DNA of 64,000 bases from Escherichia coli (GTDB lineage Bacteria; Pseudomonadota; Gammaproteobacteria; Enterobacterales; Enterobacteriaceae): NCBI RefSeq assembly GCF_016903815.1, contig NZ_CP069973.1; one strand, written 5' to 3'. Below, in pieces: positions 2,221-63,038 of the stretch (position 1 is the first letter of the stretch; each line of letters opens with the position of its first letter). The translations under genes were made by a program, and so were the position numbers. A model generated the notes under the pieces. It was given only the letters and a program-made list of their open reading frames with translations. It was not told where the DNA came from and did no database searches.

Positions 2221-2792
2221 CGTAACTTACTCATTATTCTTACATTGACGACTAAGCTGCGGGCAAAGTAACGCCTTTCCGGGTGTGAACCGATGGCCTC
2301 GTGTCTAGTCGCGTCGCCAACCTCACGGTTATCGTCAGCTCAAAGAGGCGCAGAGTGTCGGTTGCCCGTTTTTCATGCGGAAAAACAGCGCAATTATCAA
2401 AGAAACAGACTGGGTATTACTCTCCAGAAATATTTCCATCTACCGGTAAGGACTGCAACCCGCAGCCCGCTAACTGCCTGAAAGATCAATACGTCTTACG
2501 CCATTGCTGCGTGGATGATCGGTCGGGCAAAATGGGTTATTCCGTAAAATTTCTTGTTTTAACAAGGATGGACACGGAAACGGCCTCATTATTCCACTGC
2601 AAGCCTTGTTATAGCAAGATGACTTTTACCATTTATCACCCGCTTACTCACAGTTTTTTCACTTCTTGCTGGTGATTGGTTTAATAACCATCAATAAAGT
2701 GATCACGTAGTGAAGTAATAAGGTGCAAAACTAAATATAAGCATAGAAAAATGAGTGGCGCGAATCCTGTTGACTAATTAGAATCGCCCACC
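2221..2792. promoter_or_regulatory. rne 5' leader and divergent rne/rluC promoter region
   Basis: 570-bp ORF-poor gap between divergent rne and rluC starts; a long structured autoregulatory rne leader is established for this locus. Confidence 0.5.
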
Positions 2793-3863: not shown

Positions 3864-4448
3864 CTATCCCATCAGCGGGTTTTTCCCTTCCCGACGTAAC
3901 ATCTGACACAGCGCGATTAGCGGTAAACCAACCAGCGTGTTAGGATCACGCCCCTCTAAACGCTCAAACAGCGTAATGCCAAATCCTTCACTCTTAAAGC
4001 TACCCGCGCAGTGCAGGGGATGCTCTTTACGCACGTAATTATCAATCTCCGCCTCGCTCAGGTGACGGAAATGGACGTCAAAAGGCTCCACTTCTGTTTG
4101 TAGATGCCCATTCGCCGAATTAAACAACGCCAGTCCAGTATAGAAGGTGACGATATTGCCGCTGGCTTTGCGTAATTGCAGACGGGCATTTTCTTCCGTT
4201 AACGGTTTACCGGTGATTTCGCCATCAAGAACACATACCTGGTCTGAACCAATAATTAAATGATCCGGATAACGTGACGCCAGAGATTGCGCTTTTTCTT
4301 GTGCCAGTCGAAGCACCAACTGTCGCGGTGATTCGTCGCTGCGTGGGGTTTCGTCGACCTCTGGTGCTGCACATTCAAAAGAGATTTGCAGTTTTTCCAG
4401 AAGAGCGCGACGCCAGGGCGAGGTGGAGGCTAAAATAAGTTTAGGCAT
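3864..4448 (-). CDS. yceF: Maf-like nucleotide pyrophosphatase YceF
   Basis: ORF 3864-4487; start placed at internal Met ([14 protein letters not shown]) giving 194 aa. Confidence 0.88.
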
Positions 4449-4634
4449 ATTTTTTTCCATCAGATATAGCGTATTGATGATAGCCATTTTAAACTATGCG
4501 CTTCGTTTTGCAGGTTGATGTTCGTTATCAGCACTGAACGAAAATAAAGCAGTAACCCGCAATGTGTGCGAATTATTGGCAAAAGGCAACCACAGGCTGC
4601 CTTTTTCTTTGACTCTATGACGTTACAAAGTTAA

Positions 4635-11081: not shown

Positions 11082-11794
11082 TTGTGCACAGAAAACCCCC
11101 AGCTAGGCTGGGGGTTCCGGAAAGCTTTCAGCTTTAAGCCAGTTATTAAAACCCCTTTTGATTTGTTAAAACACCTTGCGGTCTGGCAACTGCAAGTGTC
11201 AAACAAGAAATCAAAAGGGGGTCCCAATGGGGAACGAAAAGAGCTTAGCGCACACCCGATGGAACTGTAAATATCACATAGTTTTTGCGCCAAAATACCG
11301 AAGACAGGTGTTCTACAGAGAGAAGCGTAGAGCAATAGGCAGTATTTTGAGAAAGCTGTGTGAGTGGAAAAGTGTACGGATTCTGGAAGCTGAATGCTGT
11401 GCAGATCATATCCATATGCTTGTGGAGATCCCGCCCAAAATGAGCGTATCCGGCTTTATGGGATATCTGAAAGGGAAAAGCAGTCTGATGCTTTACGAGC
11501 AGTTTGGTGATTTGAAATTCAAATACAGGAACAGGGAGTTCTGGTGCAGAGGGTACTACGTCGATACGGTGGGTAAGAACACGGCGAAGATACAGGATTA
11601 CATAAAGCACCAGCTTGAAGAGGATAAAATGGGAGAGCAGTTATCGATTCCCTATCCGGGCAGCCCGTTTACGGGCCGTAAGTAACGAAGTTGGATGCAA
11701 ATGTCAGATCGTGTGCGCCTGTTAGGGCGCGGCTGGTAAGAGAGCCTTATAGGCGCATTTGAAAAACCTCCGGCTATGCCGGAGGATATTTATT
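11082..11794 (+). mobile_element. IS200-type insertion sequence, copy 1
   Basis: 713-bp block identical to 27980-28692; left-end hairpin cccccagctaggctggggg; single Y1 transposase gene; absent from this intergenic site in E. coli K-12 as I recall it. Confidence 0.9.
11227..11685 (+). CDS. tnpA: IS200/IS605-family Y1 (HUH) transposase TnpA
   Basis: 152 aa from internal Met with RBS aaaggggg; HUH motif HIHMLVEIPP; ORF-track 5' extension judged non-coding. Confidence 0.9.
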   Translation: MGNEKSLAHTRWNCKYHIVFAPKYRRQVFYREKRRAIGSILRKLCEWKSVRILEAECCADHIHMLVEIPPKMSVSGFMGYLKGKSSLMLYEQFGDLKFKYRNREFWCRGYYVDTVGKNTAKIQDYIKHQLEEDKMGEQLSIPYPGSPFTGRK

Positions 11795-27981: not shown

Positions 27982-28692
27982 GTGCACAGAAAACCCCCAG
28001 CTAGGCTGGGGGTTCCGGAAAGCTTTCAGCTTTAAGCCAGTTATTAAAACCCCTTTTGATTTGTTAAAACACCTTGCGGTCTGGCAACTGCAAGTGTCAA
28101 ACAAGAAATCAAAAGGGGGTCCCAATGGGGAACGAAAAGAGCTTAGCGCACACCCGATGGAACTGTAAATATCACATAGTTTTTGCGCCAAAATACCGAA
28201 GACAGGTGTTCTACAGAGAGAAGCGTAGAGCAATAGGCAGTATTTTGAGAAAGCTGTGTGAGTGGAAAAGTGTACGGATTCTGGAAGCTGAATGCTGTGC
28301 AGATCATATCCATATGCTTGTGGAGATCCCGCCCAAAATGAGCGTATCCGGCTTTATGGGATATCTGAAAGGGAAAAGCAGTCTGATGCTTTACGAGCAG
28401 TTTGGTGATTTGAAATTCAAATACAGGAACAGGGAGTTCTGGTGCAGAGGGTACTACGTCGATACGGTGGGTAAGAACACGGCGAAGATACAGGATTACA
28501 TAAAGCACCAGCTTGAAGAGGATAAAATGGGAGAGCAGTTATCGATTCCCTATCCGGGCAGCCCGTTTACGGGCCGTAAGTAACGAAGTTGGATGCAAAT
28601 GTCAGATCGTGTGCGCCTGTTAGGGCGCGGCTGGTAAGAGAGCCTTATAGGCGCATTTGAAAAACCTCCGGCTATGCCGGAGGATATTTATT
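27980..28692 (+). mobile_element. IS200-type insertion sequence, copy 2
   Basis: Identical to 11082-11794 by eye, same orientation. Confidence 0.9.
28125..28583 (+). CDS. tnpA: IS200/IS605-family Y1 transposase TnpA
   Basis: Same 152-aa protein as copy 1. Confidence 0.9.
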   Translation: MGNEKSLAHTRWNCKYHIVFAPKYRRQVFYREKRRAIGSILRKLCEWKSVRILEAECCADHIHMLVEIPPKMSVSGFMGYLKGKSSLMLYEQFGDLKFKYRNREFWCRGYYVDTVGKNTAKIQDYIKHQLEEDKMGEQLSIPYPGSPFTGRK

Positions 28693-47983: not shown

Positions 47984-48463
47984 AATGGCAGCCTCTTGGT
48001 TGAGTATTAATAACTCACCACCAAGGTTTTCCACGACCATAAGGGTGGTGAGGCGTACAGGGGTGGAAATACCGGTCAACCAAGAATCCGGCCAGCCTTG
48101 CAGCTGCCCTGCACGCCCCACCATAATCTGAATGTGGCTGTGCTTGACGCATAAAAAAACCGCCTGAGCGCGGTTATGCGCTTGATTGAATTCCGGGTTT
48201 CCACGCCCGGCACCCGTTTTATGAGGTGCAGGTGCACTATAATTCCACCCGTTCTGGTTTTCAATAGCTACATTCAACATTTTCTCTTACCTTTCATCAC
48301 CGAAGTGAACTTTGTTGATGCGGTGCCTGGTGCCTCCAGGTGACGTTAACCAGTTAACAATTAACGCCGGATACAGAGAATCCACCCATAACACTGTTTT
48401 TGGTTTTAACTGTTCCGCGTGCGCTTAGCCGCATTCACCGCATCACAAAATTCACTTTAAAAA

Positions 48464-48515
48464 GGGTGGCAGAGCAGTCACGGAGTAGAACTGATGCCAC
48501 CAAAGACTACACATG
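48464..48515 (-). ncRNA. dicF: DicF-like small RNA
   Basis: Minus-strand ggtggcatcagttctactccgtgactgctctgccaccc plus U-tail matches recalled DicF 3' two-thirds at about 34 of 38 nt; 5' end approximate. Confidence 0.6.
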
Positions 48516-56799: not shown

Positions 56800-56976
56800 A
56801 TAACTGCGGGTGCTTGAGGCTATCTGTCTCAGGCATGAACACCAAAAGGCAGATAGAGAAAAGCCCCAGTTAACATTACGCGTCCTGCAAGACGCTTAAC
56901 ATTAATCTGAGGCCATATCTATGCGACACATAGAGATTAGCCTCTTACGGACCGAAAGGTCAAGGAGAAGCAGGCT
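56800..56976. promoter_or_regulatory. hok mRNA leader with mok-like upstream ORF and expected antisense Sok region
   Basis: 19-codon upstream ORF (ATG 56921) whose TGA overlaps the hok ATG; hairpin gcgtcctgcaagacgc; Sok position inferred, not observed. Confidence 0.35.
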
Positions 56977-57132
56977 ATGAAGCAGCAAAAGGCGATGTTA
57001 ATCGCCCTGATCGTCATCTGTTTAACCGTCATAGTGACGGCACTGGTAACGAGGAAAGACCTCTGCGAGGTACGAATCCGAACCGGCCAGACGGAGGTCG
57101 CTGTCTTCACAGCTTACGAACCTGAGGAGTAA
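56977..57132 (+). CDS. hok: Hok/Gef-family type I toxin
   Basis: Hand translation MKQQKAMLIALIVICLTVIVTALVTRKDLCEVRIRTGQTEVAVFTAYEPEE (51 aa), essentially the HokD/RelF sequence as recalled. Confidence 0.85.
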   Translation: MKQQKAMLIALIVICLTVIVTALVTRKDLCEVRIRTGQTEVAVFTAYEPEE

Positions 57133-57946: not shown

Positions 57947-59005
57947 GTGCGGGTATTACTTCGACCTGTTCTGGTACCGGAACTTGGGCTGGTGGTGCTA
58001 AAACCGGGCCGTGAATCCATGCCGGTATTCCACAATACCCGGGTACTGGTGGAGCCGGAACCGAAAAGCATGCGTAATCTGTCGTCCGGGGTCGTTCCTG
58101 CCGTTCGCCAGCCGCTGGCGGAGGATAAATCATTACTGCCATTTTTCAGCGACGAACGAGTGATTCGTGCTGCTGGTGGCGCTGGCGCATTGTCTGACTG
58201 GTTACTGCGCCATGTTAAATCCTGCCAGTGGCCACACGGCGATTATCACCACAGTGAAACCGTCATTCACCGTTATGGTACCGGCGCAATGGTGTTGTGC
58301 TGGCACTGCGACAACCAGCTGCGCGACCAGACCTCCGAATCACTCGGGCAACTTGCTCACCAAAACCTGTCTGCATGGATGATTGACGTCATACGCCATG
58401 CAATGAATGGCTCGCAGGAACGGGAATTATCGCTGGCTGAATTATCCTGGTGGGCGGTCCGCAATCAGGTGGCGGACGCGCTACCGGAAGCGGTATTACG
58501 TCGTTCGCTGGGGTTGCGTGCGGAAAAAATCCGCTCAATGTACCGTGAAAGCGACATCGTACCGGGAGAGCAGACCGCCACCAGCATACTGAAACAGCGC
58601 ACAAAAAATCTTGCGCCGCTGCCTCACGCCCACCAGCAACAGAACCCACCACAGGAAAAGACGGTGGTCAGCATTGCCGTTGATCCGGAATCTCCGGCTC
58701 AGTATCTCCAGCGCCAGAAACCACAACGGGAAGAGATGCCTGTATACACGCGCTGGGTAAAAACGCAGAAATGCATGACGTGTGGCAATCAGGCAGATGA
58801 TCCGCATCACATCATTGGTCATGGACTGGGAGGGATGGGAACAAAGGCTGACGATTTGTTTGTTATTCCGCTGTGTCGTAAATGCCATAACGAACTACAC
58901 GCCGGGGTAAAAGATTTTGAAGAAAAACACGGTAGTCAGTTGTTGTTGCTGATTCGTTTTTTAATGCACGCGAGAAATTCGGGTGTTCTGAAGTGGAAAG
59001 CATAA
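57947..59005 (+). CDS. DUF968-family phage protein
   Basis: C-terminal Cys/His cluster CMTCGNQADDPHHIIGHG...PLCRKCHNELH; position before rusA/Q as in Qin (ydfU); true start may be an internal Met. Confidence 0.6.
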   Translation: MRVLLRPVLVPELGLVVLKPGRESMPVFHNTRVLVEPEPKSMRNLSSGVVPAVRQPLAEDKSLLPFFSDERVIRAAGGAGALSDWLLRHVKSCQWPHGDYHHSETVIHRYGTGAMVLCWHCDNQLRDQTSESLGQLAHQNLSAWMIDVIRHAMNGSQERELSLAELSWWAVRNQVADALPEAVLRRSLGLRAEKIRSMYRESDIVPGEQTATSILKQRTKNLAPLPHAHQQQNPPQEKTVVSIAVDPESPAQYLQRQKPQREEMPVYTRWVKTQKCMTCGNQADDPHHIIGHGLGGMGTKADDLFVIPLCRKCHNELHAGVKDFEEKHGSQLLLLIRFLMHARNSGVLKWKA

Positions 59006-59374
59006 ATGACCGAACGCATAGAATTTGTTTTGCCTTACTCGCCGACGGTGAACACTTACTGGCGACGCCGTGGCAGCACATATTTTGTATCAAAAGCCGG
59101 GGAGCGTTATCGCCGGGCAGTGGCGCTTATTGTTCGCCAGCAGCGACTGAAATTAAGCCTGTCCGGACGGCTGGCAATAAAAATTATTGCAGAGCCACCG
59201 GATAAGCGTCGTCGTGACCTGGACAATATTCTGAAAGCACCACTGGATGCGCTGACGCACGCGGGGTTGTTAATGGACGATGAGCAGTTTGATGAAATCA
59301 ATATTGTACGTGGCCAGCCAGTATCTGGTGGACGGCTGGAGATAAGAATTACAGAGGTGGGTGTGCATGAATAA
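59006..59374 (+). CDS. rusA: Holliday-junction resolvase RusA
   Basis: 122 aa; PDKRRRDLDNILKAPLDALTHAG and GGRLEIRITEVG match RusA. Confidence 0.88.
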   Translation: MTERIEFVLPYSPTVNTYWRRRGSTYFVSKAGERYRRAVALIVRQQRLKLSLSGRLAIKIIAEPPDKRRRDLDNILKAPLDALTHAGLLMDDEQFDEINIVRGQPVSGGRLEIRITEVGVHE

Positions 59375-60056
59375 CCAGTATTTACAGTTTGTTCGTGAGC
59401 AACTCATGATTGCCACTGCAGATCTCAGTGGGTCGACAAAATGCCAGCTGGAAGCCTGGCAGGAAAATGCCCTGTTCGATACAGGGCGTTACAGACGCAA
59501 AAAAATTCGTTACCGCGATGAGGTAACCGGAAAAATGATCACGCGGGATAATCCCCCGATCCAGGGTAAACAATCACTGGCGAAAGGCTCATCAATTGCG
59601 CTGGTCAGTCCTGTTGAGTTTGCAACATCATCGTGGCGGCGTGCTGTTCTGGAACTGGAAGAACATCAGAAGGCGTGGTTGTTGTGGTGTTATGGCGGAA
59701 ACATTTGCTGGGAGCATCAGATCGCGATAACGCAGTGGGGGTGGAGTGAATTTAAAACTCAGTCCGGCTCCAGAAAAATTGCAGTGAAAACGCTGGAGCG
59801 TGTGAAGAAGTTGATCTGGCTGGCGGCACAGGATGTCAGAGGATGGGTTACCGGGTGTGAGGTCTACCAGAGACAGGAGCTTGCCAGACTGTGTGGAGTT
59901 AAGCCTGATAACTGGAGCCATAATTATGCGAACTACTGGCGTGAGATGTGCGATATTTTTAAGCGCCTCGATAGAGAATCCTTGATTTGCTCCGTGAAAA
60001 TAAGAGCGCAACAAAAAGCGACCTTTTCACGACGAGATATTGCAAAAGTCAATTAA
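59367..60056 (+). CDS. Putative late-gene antiterminator (Q-like)
   Basis: 229 aa, overlapping rusA stop, directly upstream of a tR'-like terminator and the lysis genes; assigned by position. Confidence 0.5.
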   Translation: MNNQYLQFVREQLMIATADLSGSTKCQLEAWQENALFDTGRYRRKKIRYRDEVTGKMITRDNPPIQGKQSLAKGSSIALVSPVEFATSSWRRAVLELEEHQKAWLLWCYGGNICWEHQIAITQWGWSEFKTQSGSRKIAVKTLERVKKLIWLAAQDVRGWVTGCEVYQRQELARLCGVKPDNWSHNYANYWREMCDIFKRLDRESLICSVKIRAQQKATFSRRDIAKVN

Positions 60057-60117
60057 ATCGCGTATGTTTCGTATAAATCTGATATTTTGCCGATTTTGTA
60101 CGTGATGGCAAAGTAAG

Positions 60118-60146
60118 AAAAAACCACCGCCAGGTGGTTTTTTTTA
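60118..60146 (+). terminator. tR'-like rho-independent terminator downstream of Q
   Basis: gaaaaaaaccaccgccaggtggttttttttat. Confidence 0.75.
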
Positions 60147-60268
60147 TGTCCGAAAATCGCGTCAGTACAGTAAACGCGCTGGTGGTTGCGAATACGGGTC
60201 TTTCAGCTTGCCGGCTTTTTCGACAAGAGTTATTGGTATGTCACGTTAACCGGAAAAGGGAAAAAGAC

Positions 60269-60466
60269 ATGCTAAAACAGCAGGATATGACAGAAGCCGC
60301 CAGAGTGGTGTTTAATGAATTAAGCGTTACCGACCCGGCGACAGTCAGGGAGATTGCACAGAATACTTACCTTTCACGCGAACGCTGCCAGTTAATACTG
60401 ACCCAGCTTGTTATGGCGGGTCTGGCAGACTATCAGTTTGGTTGTTACAGACACCTTCAGTCCTGA
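60269..60466 (+). CDS. Hypothetical small protein
   Basis: 65 aa from ATG 60269 (MLKQQDMTEAARVV...) with RBS aaggg; stop lies inside a terminator hairpin. Confidence 0.35.
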   Translation: MLKQQDMTEAARVVFNELSVTDPATVREIAQNTYLSRERCQLILTQLVMAGLADYQFGCYRHLQS

Positions 60467-60478
60467 AGGCTTTTTTAT
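60454..60478 (+). terminator. Rho-independent terminator
   Basis: ccttcagtcctgaaggcttttttattt. Confidence 0.6.
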
Positions 60479-60835
60479 TTGTGGTAAATGGGCGGCTGGT
60501 GGGTGTGGTGGTTGTTGCTTTCCCGTTGCTGAAAAAGAAAACGCCAGACTGTTAGCCGGGTATCAGTTAGCGGGAGAAATTTTTAAATACTTCACAATTC
60601 AGGCGGTTGACTGTTGTCTGGTTTGCGGGGAGTTTGTTAAAAGAAACTGGCATGGTGAATCCCCCTGTGCGGAGGGGCAATCAGCGAGTAGGTATATGGG
60701 ATAATCGCGGATTCAGGTGCTGGTACTGAATTCACCGGGAGGCACCCGGCACCATGCAATGGCACATAGCGCCACTCTCCAGCCCCTCTCCGGAGGGGCT
60801 GTTTATATTGATTTTGTCAGATGTGAGTAAACTCC

Positions 60836-61171
60836 TTATGGACTTTGTTGTTTTAGCCCATAAGGACATATTTGCAGAGTGCAACGATTATTAAAGCATT
60901 CATTCAATACGTTATCTGTATTTGTAGGGCATTCCTGGCTGTTTTTGATTAAATTCCAGAATGTTTTATTGAATGGTACTACGTTGTAAATGGTTACAGG
61001 TAGCACTTTGTTATTGAGCATGATACCTGTGTGAGTCAGTGTAAATATACTTTCAGGAGGTAAGAAAGCATCCGATTGATACCAGATTATTAATTTTATT
61101 TTACTCCATATGACTGAAAAAGATATTCCGCATGATGGCTGGATAACTGTATCAATCACAATCCACTTCAT
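60836..61171 (-). CDS. Hypothetical protein in AT-rich island (antisense to the late operon)
   Basis: 111-aa ORF open despite AT-rich (stop-codon-prone) sequence; four Cys in the C-terminal third; AT-rich upstream region. Confidence 0.4.
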
Positions 61172-61416
61172 TTAGTTTCCTTGTTTATGCCTTGCTGGTG
61201 ATGTTCTGAAAAGTATAAATGATATTTTTGATTGTAAACCATAGAGCAGAATTATTTTTCTGATGTTGTTTATTGTTTATTTAAATGCAGGGTGGTTTAT
61301 ATCTCGTCTTGTAGTTTATCCATGCATATCTGCTTGATGATGAGGTTTTTATTTAAGGTATGGTTTTGTGTTTTTTCTGTATTACATGTCAGGTATTTTA
61401 AAGAATCATTTTTCAG

Positions 61417-61620
61417 ATGGTGGAAAGAACCATGGCATTTAAACACTATGATGTTGTCAGGGCGGCGTCGCCGTCAGATCTTGCGGAAAAGCTGACACAT
61501 AAACTGAAAGAGGGCTGGCAGCCGTTTGGTAGTCCGGTGGCCATAACCCCTTATACCCTGATGCAGGCGATTGCAGCAGAAGGTGATGTGGTGGTCAGTG
61601 GTGCAACTGAGCCGGAGTGA
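61417..61620 (+). CDS. Hypothetical small protein
   Basis: 67-aa ORF; stop overlaps the next small ORF start (GTGA). Confidence 0.4.
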   Translation: MVERTMAFKHYDVVRAASPSDLAEKLTHKLKEGWQPFGSPVAITPYTLMQAIAAEGDVVVSGATEPE

Positions 61621-61778
61621 TACTACGTCATCGTACTGGCCCGGCATTCCAGGCCATAAAAGACGGTCTGGCAGTGGGACTAAATGCACTGACGCTGACG
61701 GATATTACCAAAAATGCAACGTATGGCGTTGAGATAGAAAGTCTGGTGCTGGAGATAAATGCACCGGCATCATCATAA
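61617..61778 (+). CDS. Hypothetical small protein (translationally coupled)
   Basis: Hand-translated 53-codon frame from GTG 61617; below the ORF-track cutoff. Confidence 0.25.
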
Positions 61779-61927
61779 AAAGTGAGCCAGTCAAATGGAA
61801 GGTATCGTTAAACTCACCGGTAGTGTCAGTGGGTCGTCTGAGACGCCTGCATGAGTTATCAGAGCCATCAGTACTTAACTGGTGGCTTTTTTATTGTTGT
61901 CAGCTTCCGGATAACGGGAGACGGGGT

Positions 61928-62143
61928 ATGTACCAGATGGAAAAAATCACAACAGGTGTGTCATACACCACGTCAGCGGTGGGAACGGGCTACTGGTTCC
62001 TGCAGTTGCTGGACAGGGTTTCCCCGTCTCAGTGGGCGGCAATAGGCGTGCTGGGGAGTCTGCTGTTTGGGCTGCTGACATATCTGACTAACCTGTATTT
62101 CAAAATCAAAGAGGACCGGCGTAAGGCGGCGCGGGGAGAGTAA
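61928..62143 (+). CDS. S: Class II pinholin, phage 21 S-type
   Basis: [51 protein letters not shown] closely matches recalled S21; dual start motif M-Y-Q-M at 61928/61937. Confidence 0.88.
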
Positions 62144-62147
62144 AGTG

Positions 62148-63038
62148 ATGAATAAAAAATATGAACTGGTTGTTAAGGGGATAAATAATTACGGGGATAA
62201 GGTTACTGTTACTGTGAAGTCGGAAGGTGACGGGCAAGCGTCGCTGTTGTTGCCAGATGTGGCGATTAGTCTTGACCGTACTGAAGGTGCCACGCTGGAG
62301 TTTTACGAAGCTGAGGCGAAAAAGCAGGCGAAGCAGTTTTTCATGGATGTTGCTGCCGGGTTATGTGAATGGAACGAACCGTTGCCGGAAAAGCGCCCCG
62401 TAATTTTAGAGGCGCAGGATGTGTTGATAACCTACAAAGGAAAGCTACCGGGAAGAATTACTTGTTCTCTGAAGATGCCGCCGTCAACACTGCGGTCAGA
62501 AAAAGATGATGTTGAATCACGTATTGAAAAACTGGAGAGCTACGTCGTTGAGCTGAATAAGAAATGGTCGATATTGGTGCCTTCTGGCGATGAAAAGCAG
62601 TTTGCTGCGTTTGACGATTATTGTCGGAAAGTGATGAGCAGAAATCTCGCAGAGTGTTTCAGTATTCATAATGATAATTTCAGTGACCCGGAATGGGAGT
62701 GTAACCGGCCATCCTTTGTTGTATCCGGTGATGCTGGGAAAATAACCATCTCAGAAAATGGGAAAGTAACACCTCCATCGCACCAGCACAGTGAGGAGCT
62801 CATTGAATTTGCCATTGATTACCTGAAGAACAATAAAAAGCAGGGGCTGATGAAGCGCGTTGGCCGTTGCATGGGATATCTTCAGGTAGCCGCTGAGATT
62901 GAAGCGCTGGCCAGTGGTGCTGATAAGGATGCAATTGTGCGGGAGGCTCTTCTTCGTGATTTTAATACTCCACCCTTTAAAAAAGTGCCGGCTTACTGGC
63001 TTCATCCGGGGCTGACTTATCTTAAAGTGCGTATTTAG
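62148..63038 (+). CDS. Hypothetical 296-aa protein inserted between holin and endolysin
   Basis: ATG 62148 five nt after the holin stop with RBS ggggagag; no recognised catalytic motif. Confidence 0.6.
   Translation: MNKKYELVVKGINNYGDKVTVTVKSEGDGQASLLLPDVAISLDRTEGATLEFYEAEAKKQAKQFFMDVAAGLCEWNEPLPEKRPVILEAQDVLITYKGKLPGRITCSLKMPPSTLRSEKDDVESRIEKLESYVVELNKKWSILVPSGDEKQFAAFDDYCRKVMSRNLAECFSIHNDNFSDPEWECNRPSFVVSGDAGKITISENGKVTPPSHQHSEELIEFAIDYLKNNKKQGLMKRVGRCMGYLQVAAEIEALASGADKDAIVREALLRDFNTPPFKKVPAYWLHPGLTYLKVRI

What the first reader, a model, noticed from the sequence alone, without database searches (positions are those of the whole stretch)
60480..60830. Hairpin-rich segment after the tR' terminators, possibly a structured RNA or Cys-rich micro-ORF
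Downstream of two consecutive intrinsic terminators there are strong GC hairpins (ccccctgtgcggagggg at about 60660, agcccctctccggaggggct at about 60781, the latter followed by a T-rich tail). The only long frame, the track ORF at 60408-60704, begins upstream within the 65-aa ORF, has no obvious RBS and is unusually Cys-rich (CGGCC, CCLVCG). In Stx phages this position carries tRNA genes, but I see no tRNA-like T-loop or acceptor pattern.
Basis: seen in the sequence. Interest (0 to 1): 0.4.

Follow-up and report, generated by a model that had tools for sequence, protein, structure and literature searches.

The report
Known prophage small RNA STnc100
The hairpins belong to a copy of STnc100, a known small RNA gene carried in many copies by lambda-like prophages of E. 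coli and Salmonella; the Cys-rich reading frame is not a gene, so the finding is real but ordinary.

Summary
They are two helices of one RNA gene, not loose hairpins. Rfam's STnc100 model (RF02076) matches 60621-60810 (+) end to end at 132.4 bits (threshold 47, E 3.8e-30).

The likely transcript is about 160 nt, 60650-60809. It has a five-helix 5' domain closed by an 8-bp stem, a 22-nt linker, and an intrinsic terminator. Relatives support the fold: 95.7% of cells pair, 10 pairs show compensatory changes, and the closing stem covaries at two positions.

An extended -10-like motif (TGtTAAAAG) sits at the right distance upstream. It stays conserved where the surrounding sequence differs.

It holds the 3' remnant of a DUF3927/TciB small-protein gene. 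The 98-aa Cys-rich ORF is another frame of that remnant, runs across a terminator and into the RNA, and matches no family. There is no tRNA.

Other copies of this family are reported as transcribed and Hfq-bound, for example EcOnc27 next to stx2B. PasD1/PasD2 of EPEC are diverged relatives. No function has been established.

Most likely this is a trans-acting base-pairing sRNA with a constant scaffold and a swappable 3' seed. Already known; low interest.

The parts
60487..60555 (+). Context, not part of the RNA: 3' remnant (about 22 codons plus stop) of a DUF3927/TciB-type small membrane-protein gene. In relatives the intact gene directly precedes the sRNA.
   Evidence: Pfam DUF3927 matches residues 16-37 of the 60442-60555 ORF to profile positions 31-53 of 53. 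The alignment with intact E2348/69, JLK-2012 and mEp460 proteins covers the C-terminus only. PGAP- or 24-aa fragments here.
60614..60643 (+). Inferred sigma-70 promoter: weak -35-like TTGTCT (60614-60619), extended -10 TG (60635-60636) and -10 TAAAAG (60638-60643).
   Evidence: TTTGTTAAAA at -17..-8 relative to GCATGG is 83-100% conserved at most of its positions (about 50% at -15, -14 and -12, where the two promoter classes differ) in 42 distinct upstream sequences whose flanks differ. The geometry places +1 at 60650. The simple promoter scan did not call this site.
60621..60810 (+). Extent of the Rfam STnc100 (RF02076) match. The first ~29 model positions cover what is probably promoter DNA.
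   Evidence: cmscan gives 132.4 bits against a gathering score of 47, E 3.8e-30, model positions 1-206 of 206.
60650..60809 (+). Inferred primary transcript of the sRNA, about 160 nt.
   Evidence: The 5' end is inferred from promoter geometry. It agrees with the RNA-seq 5' end of the relative PasD1, which is the homologous G of GCATGG (NC_011601:1060260, supplement of PMC8550237). The 3' end is inferred from the terminator. MFE -69.5 kcal/mol, z -3.1.
60650..60657 (+). P1, 5' strand (GCAUGGUG) of the 8-bp stem that closes the 5' domain.
   Evidence: It pairs with 60750-60757 in the MFE and consensus folds. Relatives with GCATGATG carry CATCATG(C/T) in 19 of 19 cases. Relatives with GCATAGTG carry CACTATGC in 5 of 7.
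60662..60677 (+). P2 hairpin (CCCCC / 6-nt loop / GGGGG region).
   Evidence: It pairs in 100% of cells in 21 sequences, is nearly invariant, and shows no covariation.
60684..60708 (+). Variable central segment with a weak 4-bp P3 (GCGA/UCGC). It contains the mini-frame AUG GGA UAA at 60696-60704.
   Evidence: P3 appears only in the MFE fold of this sequence. It is not in the consensus. The region falls into about 26 length and sequence classes among relatives.
60709..60733 (+). P4 hairpin, 8 bp (GGAUUCAG / CUGAAUUC).
   Evidence: Six of its 8 pairs show changes on both sides that keep pairing; 98.2% of cells are paired.
60735..60749 (+). P5 hairpin (CCGGG AGGCA CCCGG), abutting the 3' strand of P1.
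   Evidence: It is nearly invariant and degenerate only in PasD1/PasD2.
60750..60757 (+). P1, 3' strand (CACCAUGC).
60758..60779 (+). Linker AAUGGCACAUAGCGCCACUCUC, the candidate seed. It holds a small 4-bp hairpin and a C/U-rich stretch next to the terminator.
   Evidence: This is the position where family members differ in blocks, with about 12 tail classes between a constant scaffold and terminator. PasD's proposed seed UGUGAG lies at the equivalent place (supplement of PMC8550237). The seed function is inferred.
60780..60809 (+). Intrinsic terminator: 9-bp G+C-rich stem with a 4-nt loop (60780-60801), then UUUAUAUU.
   Evidence: Terminator scan. Four of its pairs covary among relatives.

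Best explanation
The finding is a gene for an STnc100-family small RNA (Rfam RF02076). It lies in the 'moron' region of a Qin-like lambdoid prophage, between the Q antiterminator with its terminators and the lysis genes, on the same strand as the late operon.

Shown here: family membership, the conserved fold, and the anatomy. The fold has an 8-bp closing stem P1, invariant hairpins P2 and P5, a covarying hairpin P4, a variable centre, a 22-nt linker and an intrinsic terminator.

Inferred: the RNA is made in the lysogen from its own extended -10 sigma-70 promoter. It starts at G60650 and ends at the terminator near 60809, about 160 nt. The two terminators upstream keep pR' transcripts out unless Q is active.

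Most likely mechanism (inferred from the anatomy and from published data on other copies): a trans-acting, Hfq-associated base-pairing sRNA. The constant 5' domain and terminator serve as a stable scaffold. The linker just before the terminator (60758-60779, including the C/U-rich CACUCUCC) is the seed that pairs with host or phage RNAs. Family members keep the scaffold and swap the linker, which would give each copy a different target set.
For: Identity: cmscan scores 132.4 bits against a threshold of 47, E 3.8e-30, full model, reproduced. One phage record annotates the homologous site as STnc100.

Fold: MFE z -3.1. In a 21-sequence alignment 95.7% of cells are paired and 10 pairs have compensatory changes. 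No shuffle of 500 reaches that, and slid controls give 3 or fewer. P1 covaries at two positions (and directly in L064).

Promoter: TTTGTTAAAA stays conserved in otherwise divergent upstream DNA at fixed distance from GCATGG. The homologous G is the RNA-seq 5' end of PasD1. RpoD ChIP-exo signal at Salmonella STnc100 promoters is reported in PMC10794520.

Terminators: three + strand terminators are called, at 60126, 60454 and 60780.

Expression and Hfq binding of other copies, from the literature: eleven copies in EDL933 have RNA-seq reads and one was seen on a Northern blot (PMC5331693). EcOnc27/sRNA103, which overlaps the STnc100 copy next to stx2B, is Hfq-bound (PMC12711010; PMC4104026). PasD1/2 were detected by Hfq RIL-seq and Northern blot (PMC8550237). 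The published STnc_100 qPCR primers match the window exactly.

Modularity: about 12 linker classes and about 26 centre classes sit on one scaffold.

Spread: the sequence is 100% identical over 366 nt in many E. coli genomes. There are matches in 2881 of 5426 genomes, median 2 and up to 16 places per genome.
Against: There are no expression data for this copy or this linker variant. Transcript ends are inferred.

The -10 element lacks the usual T at -7, the -35 is weak, and the simple promoter scan did not call the site.

The U tract is interrupted (UUUAUAUU). That should weaken both termination and Hfq binding compared with relatives that end in UUUUUU.

No target is known for any STnc100 member, and I did not make any target prediction. 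The proposed stxB pairing in PMC12370729 is an 11-nt in silico match only.

The strong conservation of P1, P2 and P5 at the sequence level is more than a passive scaffold would need. This is left unexplained.
Confidence: 0.8

Rival explanations
1. The segment encodes a small Cys-rich protein (the 98-aa ORF 60408-60704, or one of the 37-46-aa frames inside the RNA).
For: The frames exist. Ribosome footprints on some STnc100 copies in EDL933 are reported, with ribosomal coverage up to 3.2 (PMC5331693). A minimal frame AUG GGA UAA lies at 60696-60704 behind an AGG.
Against: There is no Pfam or NCBIfam match. The frame runs through the 3' end of the 65-aa ORF, a terminator, a DUF3927 remnant that is recognisable in a different frame, the promoter, and P1-P3 of the RNA. 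Homology to relatives begins only at 60497, so the N-terminal third is not shared. The variable centre and tails of the family break any internal frame.
Confidence: 0.02
2. It is a tRNA gene, a degenerate tRNA or a tRNA-like element, as expected from the tRNA genes at this position in Stx phages.
For: The 5' domain is a multi-helix junction closed by an 8-bp stem, with a 5-bp hairpin stacked directly against its 3' strand. That loosely resembles a cloverleaf. tRNA genes lie in the same region of related phages.
Against: ARAGORN finds nothing. The Rfam tRNA model gives no match even at E up to 10. Loop sizes and sequences do not fit D or T loops, and there is no CCA or discriminator context. 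In relatives the tRNAs are separate genes further upstream of an STnc100 copy.
Confidence: 0.02
3. It is only a cis-acting part of the late operon: a further terminator, or a processing or stabilising structure in the pR' transcript, without a role as a separate RNA.
For: It always lies between Q and the lysis genes on the late strand. It ends in a terminator that Q-modified polymerase would read through, so its sequence is embedded in late mRNA after induction.
Against: A promoter-like element is conserved at fixed distance. Related copies give discrete, abundant RNAs in uninduced lysogens (PMC8550237, PMC5331693). Up to five copies occur in one locus, four of them in tandem with different linkers, which a terminator function does not explain.
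Confidence: 0.08
4. It acts as an anti-sRNA or sponge that titrates a core-genome sRNA or an RNA-binding protein, rather than by regulating mRNAs directly.
For: The convergent neighbours of STnc100 copies in this same moron site, AgvB and AsxR, are anti-sRNAs (PMC4104026; arrangement confirmed). The invariant P1/P2/P5 sequences could be a protein-binding surface.
Against: Nothing was tested for STnc100. I did not look for complementarity to a known sRNA seed. RIL-seq partners listed for PasD are mostly mRNAs (supplement of PMC8550237).
Confidence: 0.1

Closest known systems
STnc100 (Rfam RF02076), the multi-copy sRNA of lambdoid prophages of Salmonella and E. coli. In EHEC Sakai the copy next to stx2B overlaps the Hfq-bound sRNA EcOnc27 (sRNA103 in EDL933).
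   Same: The model matches over its full length well above threshold. The helices are the same. The position is the same: between Q and the lysis genes on the late strand. The promoter motif and the terminator type are the same.
   Different: The VT2-Sakai copy (207.7 bits) has a longer central segment, another linker (AGUAUACAGAGAUUAGGCAUAUACCAAG) and another terminator stem. It is paired with a convergent AsxR gene. The window copy has no AgvB/AsxR partner and instead faces an iraM-like gene.
PasD1/PasD2 of EPEC E2348/69 (EcOnc13 homologues): Hfq RIL-seq sRNAs of 172-173 nt
   Same: The 5' end (GCAUGGUGAAUCC), the P2 and P4 topology and the GGGAGGC motif are shared. The upstream TTATTAAAA promoter motif is shared. 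The gene sits directly downstream of a DUF3927 gene. A common origin was proposed in bioRxiv 10.64898/2026.05.13.724894.
   Different: PasD scores only 37.7 and 41.4 bits on RF02076, below the threshold of 47. Its P5 is degenerate. Its linker carries the proposed seed UGUGAG and its terminator is GGCUGCGCAUGGCGCGGCC. Neither is present in the window.
AgvB/AsxR anti-sRNAs (RF02702, RF02703)
   Same: They occupy the same moron site of lambdoid prophages. They also have a constant part and a variable targeting part (PMC4104026).
   Different: They are 51-60 nt, lie on the opposite strand, and are unrelated in sequence. There is no match in 59000-62500 at E up to 10.
IpeX of the K-12 DLP12 prophage
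   Same: It is a prophage sRNA of similar size (167 nt) encoded downstream of Q in the late region.
   Different: The DLP12 region 572000-580000 has no STnc100 match at the gathering threshold. IpeX is described as processed from the nmpC porin transcript (PMC12197685). I took this resemblance from memory, tested it and dropped it.

Membership tests
STnc100 (RF02076) | Score at or above the curated gathering threshold of the covariance model, over the whole model | tested here: met
   132.4 bits against 47, E 3.8e-30, model positions 1-206 of 206, not truncated.
STnc100 (RF02076) | Family helices present and maintained by compensatory change among relatives | tested here: met
   95.7% of cells are paired and 10 pairs have changes on both sides. 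No shuffle of 500 reaches that, and slid controls give 3 or fewer. P1 covaries at two positions. P2 and P5 never vary, so they say nothing either way.
STnc100 (RF02076) | Location in a lambdoid prophage between the Q antiterminator and the lysis cassette | tested here: met
   The gene order is DUF968, RusA, Q, then the RNA, then holin and lysozyme. VT2-Sakai, JLK-2012 and E2348/69 have the same layout.
STnc100 (RF02076) | Independent transcription unit: own promoter and intrinsic terminator | tested here: inconclusive
   The terminator is called. A TGnTAAAA-type motif is conserved at -15..-7, but the consensus promoter scan did not call it and no TSS data exist for this copy.
STnc100 (RF02076) | Expressed as a discrete small RNA that associates with Hfq | not testable with these tools
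   Only published data on other copies are available: PMC5331693, PMC4104026, PMC12711010, PMC12370729.
PasD (EPEC Pas sRNAs) | PasD linker with the UGUGAG seed and the PasD terminator; near-identity to PasD1/PasD2 | tested here: not met
   The window linker and terminator are unrelated to those of PasD. PasD itself falls below the STnc100 threshold, whereas the window is far above it.
PasD (EPEC Pas sRNAs) | Position directly downstream of a DUF3927 small-protein gene, after Q | tested here: met
   A DUF3927 remnant ends at 60555, 95 nt before +1. An intact DUF3927 gene precedes PasD1 and PasD2.
tRNA | Cloverleaf recognised by tRNA detectors | tested here: not met
   ARAGORN finds 0 genes in the window. 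No Rfam tRNA match in 59000-62500 at E up to 10.
AgvB/AsxR anti-sRNAs | Match to RF02702 or RF02703, convergent to the sense sRNA | tested here: not met
   No match in 59000-62500 at E up to 10. The same scan type finds them next to STnc100 in L128 and L016.
DUF3927 (PF13064), for the coding alternative | Full-length match of a roughly 50-aa protein | tested here: not met
   Only profile positions 31-53 of 53 are matched, at 29.9 bits. The N-terminal half is missing. The 98-aa Cys-rich frame has no match at all.

The most novel reading that the evidence does not exclude
The invariant five-helix 5' domain (P1, P2, P5 and the junction) may be a functional module in its own right. It could be a binding site or decoy for a host or phage protein, or a nuclease-resistant fold. 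Lambdoid phages would then use it as a common chassis onto which interchangeable 3' seeds are recombined, sometimes as tandem arrays of differently armed copies.

My evidence shows sequence invariance beyond what pairing needs, block-wise swapping of centres and linkers, and a five-copy locus. It does not show what the domain does.
Probability: 0.2. Interest if true: 0.5.

Novelty: already known. Interest (0 to 1): 0.2.

Why it matters
For annotation, NCBI's PGAP pipeline leaves this RNA unannotated in the genomes I looked at. It places short 'hypothetical protein' or 'DUF3927' CDS and a minus-strand pseudogene around and over it. Rfam-based annotation names it correctly.

For biology, STnc100 is among the most abundant sRNA families in enterobacterial genomes. 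It sits next to stx2 in Shiga-toxin phages. Variation within that copy has been linked statistically to HUS outcome (PMC12711010). Yet no target or function is known.

This copy adds nothing new in kind. It does show the family's constant-scaffold, variable-linker layout in a non-Stx, Qin-like prophage that is widespread in human isolates.

Tried and rejected
1. IpeX identity. I recalled that IpeX is also a prophage sRNA of about 167 nt downstream of Q. The K-12 DLP12 region gave no STnc100 match at the gathering threshold, so I dropped it.

2. PasD identity. I fetched PasD1 and PasD2 from E2348/69. They are related but score below the family threshold and have a different linker and terminator.

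3. tRNA or tRNA-like element. Negative with ARAGORN and Rfam.

4. Coding capacity. Pfam and NCBIfam are negative for the 98-aa ORF and for the 40-aa internal frame.

5. The Northern-verified EDL933 copy STnc100_4. I tried to fetch it for a direct comparison, but NC_002655.2 is not in the collection.

6. 'EcOnc13' in the paper library: no hits. I did not read the Tree et al. supplement.

7. The weak Rfam matches at 60061-60187 (STnc370, Phe_leader, isrK, RNAI, isrD) are all below threshold. They all sit on the first terminator hairpin, so I treated them as terminator look-alikes.

8. I did not run any target prediction for the linker. The tools give no whole host genome to scan, so any target statement would be guesswork.

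Full report
Setting. The window ends in the late region of a Qin-like lambdoid prophage of E. coli. The ORF list and the RefSeq annotation of identical DNA give this order: hokD, rem, a DUF968 protein (57947-59005), RusA (59006-59374) and a Q antiterminator (59361-60056). Next come a terminator hairpin at about 60118-60147, a 65-aa ORF (60269-60466) and a second terminator (60454-60475). The finding follows. After it come a convergent gene on the minus strand (60836-61171), a DUF1737 gene, a holin and a lysozyme.

Observation. Excess structure is confined to 60650-60808, which folds at -69.5 kcal/mol with z -3.1.

Identity. A scan of 59000-62500 against all Rfam families gives one strong match. 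It is STnc100 (RF02076) at 60621-60810 on the + strand, 132.4 bits against a gathering score of 47, E 3.8e-30, covering model positions 1-206 of 206. A second scan reproduced it. All other matches in the region are below threshold and sit on the first terminator.

Anatomy. The minimum-energy fold of 60650-60808 and the RNAalifold consensus of 21 relatives agree on the main helices.
- P1: 60650-60657 with 60750-60757, 8 bp, closing the 5' domain.
- P2: 60662-60666 with 60673-60677.
- P4: 60709-60716 with 60726-60733.
- P5: 60735-60739 with 60745-60749, directly abutting the 3' strand of P1.
- Linker: 60758-60779.
- Terminator: 60780-60788 with 60793-60801, followed by UUUAUAUU.
A weak P3 (60684-60687 with 60705-60708) appears only in the single-sequence fold.

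Conservation of the fold. I collected relatives from IMG/VR with a 17-nt motif from the 5' end. That gave 120 loci, 137 instances and 87 distinct sequences. On 21 diverse members, 95.7% of cells form standard pairs and 10 of 34 pairs carry changes on both sides. None of 500 column shuffles reaches that, and structures slid by 1-3 columns give at most 3 such pairs. The compensatory changes lie in P4 (6 of 8 pairs) and the terminator (4 of 7).

That search fixed the 5' strand of P1, so it could not test P1. I therefore ran two further scans that required a non-consensus base at P1 position 5 or 6. Copies with GCATGATG carry CATCATG(C/T) in 19 of 19 distinct instances. Copies with GCATAGTG carry CACTATGC in 5 of 7. 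Copies with the consensus 5' strand rarely carry those 3' changes. One example can be read directly in L064. P2 and P5 are almost invariant, so they offer no covariation evidence either way.

Promoter and ends (inferred). In 42 distinct upstream sequences, the stretch from -17 to -8 relative to the G of GCATGG reads TTTGTTAAAA or TTTATTAAAA. Most of these positions are 83-100% conserved; positions -15, -14 and -12 are split about evenly between the two classes. The DNA on either side differs between classes. In the window this gives TG at 60635-60636 and TAAAAG at 60638-60643, an extended -10 layout that places +1 at 60650. A weak -35-like TTGTCT lies 18 nt upstream of the -10. The homologous G is the reported 5' end of PasD1 in E2348/69 (coordinates from the supplement of PMC8550237; alignment). 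The simple consensus scan did not call this promoter, and the -10 lacks the usual T at -7, so I treat it as inferred. The first ~29 positions of the Rfam model thus probably cover promoter DNA rather than RNA.

What the rest of the interval is. The frame 60442-60555 matches only the C-terminal part (profile positions 31-53 of 53) of Pfam DUF3927. Aligned with the intact 43-54-aa proteins of E2348/69, JLK-2012 (annotated TciB) and mEp460, the window keeps only the last ~20 residues. In those genomes the intact gene directly precedes the sRNA. Homology of the window to JLK-2012 and mEp460 starts at 60497. So the module with the 65-aa ORF and its terminator has replaced the front of the DUF3927 gene.

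The 98-aa Cys-rich ORF is a different frame of this remnant. Its Cys and Gly run is the out-of-frame reading of the hydrophobic VGVVVVAF segment. It has no Pfam or NCBIfam match. It crosses a terminator and the promoter and stops inside the RNA. I reject it as a gene.

Relatives and what is known. The 366-nt segment is 100% identical in many E. coli genomes. 2881 of 5426 complete genomes have some match, with a median of 2 and a maximum of 16 places per genome. 283 phage records match the RNA, mostly Stx2 phages, at about 70% identity over the scaffold.

In VT2-Sakai the copy (207.7 bits) starts about 90 nt after stx2B and is followed by the convergent anti-sRNA AsxR. In another locus the convergent partner is AgvB. 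This is the 'convergent sRNA pair' in the moron site described by Tree et al. (PMC4104026). Their sense member EcOnc27 overlaps the STnc100 annotation, according to PMC12711010.

Other published data on the family:
- Eleven copies in EDL933 have RNA-seq reads, and one was detected on a Northern blot (PMC5331693).
- STnc_100 was detected by qPCR in outer-membrane vesicles, with primers that match the window exactly (PMC12370729).
- RpoD ChIP-exo signal at the Salmonella copies is reported (PMC10794520).
- A 2026 preprint proposes a common origin with PasD1/PasD2 of EPEC (bioRxiv 10.64898/2026.05.13.724894).

I checked the PasD relationship directly. PasD1 and PasD2 align with the window over the 5' part. 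They score only 37.7 and 41.4 bits on the STnc100 model and have a different linker and terminator. The window copy is STnc100 proper, not PasD. No paper I read establishes a target or function for STnc100.

Modularity. Among the collected copies, the scaffold (P1, P2, P5) and in most copies the terminator are constant. The centre between P2 and P4 falls into about 26 classes of 53-79 nt. The linker before the terminator falls into about 12 unrelated classes, and these are combined freely. The window's linker class, AAUGGCACAUAGCGCCACUCUCC, is the commonest in this sample, which is not an unbiased one. PasD's proposed seed lies at the same position. This is the basis for assigning the seed to 60758-60779. 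It is an inference, not a test.

Mechanism. I commit to a trans-acting, Hfq-associated base-pairing sRNA made in the lysogen from its own promoter. It would have a constant stabilising scaffold and a swappable 3' seed. After induction, Q-modified polymerase would read through it, so the sequence would also be part of the late transcript.

Three things count against this. There are no data for this copy. The promoter and U tract are suboptimal. The sequence invariance of P1, P2 and P5 goes beyond what a scaffold requires. That last point keeps open a role for the 5' domain itself, which is my novel case, and a sponge-type action like that of the neighbouring AgvB/AsxR family.

Verdict. The 'structured RNA' reading is right and the 'micro-ORF' reading is wrong. 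The element is a typical member of a curated, widely distributed family. It is already known, and interest is low. What remains open is the family's unknown function.

Noticed in passing
window 60836-61171 (- strand): A 111-aa gene convergent to the sRNA matches the NCBIfam IraM anti-adapter subfamily (162 bits against a cut-off of 121). IraM is an inhibitor of RssB-mediated RpoS degradation. Here it is carried as a moron in the prophage late region. Pfam has no match. Its stop codon lies 26 nt beyond the sRNA's U tract, and the shared hairpin has no U run on the minus strand.
   Followed up: partly
window 60269-60466 (+ strand): A 65-aa ORF is boxed in by two intrinsic terminators directly after Q. 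It has only weak winged-helix hits (TrmB E 9e-4, below the cut-off). PGAP calls it hypothetical. Its module appears to have replaced the 5' half of the DUF3927 gene.
   Followed up: partly
L064 4984-7937 (IMGVR_UViG_2529293141_000008): One prophage contig carries five STnc100 paralogues (119-172 bits). Four of them form a head-to-tail array with a period of about 260-270 nt. Each has a different centre and linker, and one has a compensated P1 variant (GCAUAGUG/CACUAUGC). Several other loci carry two copies about 467 nt apart.
   Followed up: partly
L004 2625-2815 (phage mEp460) and L070: In these copies the scaffold is intact, but the linker and terminator are replaced by unrelated sequence with no obvious U-tailed terminator. 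They may be truncated or read-through variants.
   Followed up: no
L002 3539-3586 and 3671-3796; L003 1512-1586 (RefSeq annotation of DNA identical to window 60508-60765): PGAP annotates 15- and 24-aa CDS ('hypothetical protein', 'DUF3927 family protein') on the gene remnant. It also annotates a minus-strand partial pseudogene lying across the sRNA. It gives no ncRNA feature. These are probably annotation artefacts.
   Followed up: partly
window 60696-60704: A minimal frame AUG GGA UAA sits inside the variable centre of the RNA, just after an AGG. A published ribosome-profiling table lists 'tatgggata' as a Shine-Dalgarno-like sequence for one EDL933 STnc100 copy with high ribosome coverage.
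   Followed up: no
window 11094-11217 and 27992-28115 (+ strand): Two matches to STnc490 (RF01405) have identical scores of 146.1 bits and lie about 16.9 kb apart. This suggests two copies of one repeated element.
   Followed up: no
window 2245-2581 (-), 4442-4610 (+), 48041-48515 (-), 56808-56979 (+): Other Rfam matches above threshold are the rne 5' UTR and SraB (host DNA at the start of the window), and C4, isrK, DicF and sok RNAs inside the prophage. They fit a Qin-like element.
   Followed up: no
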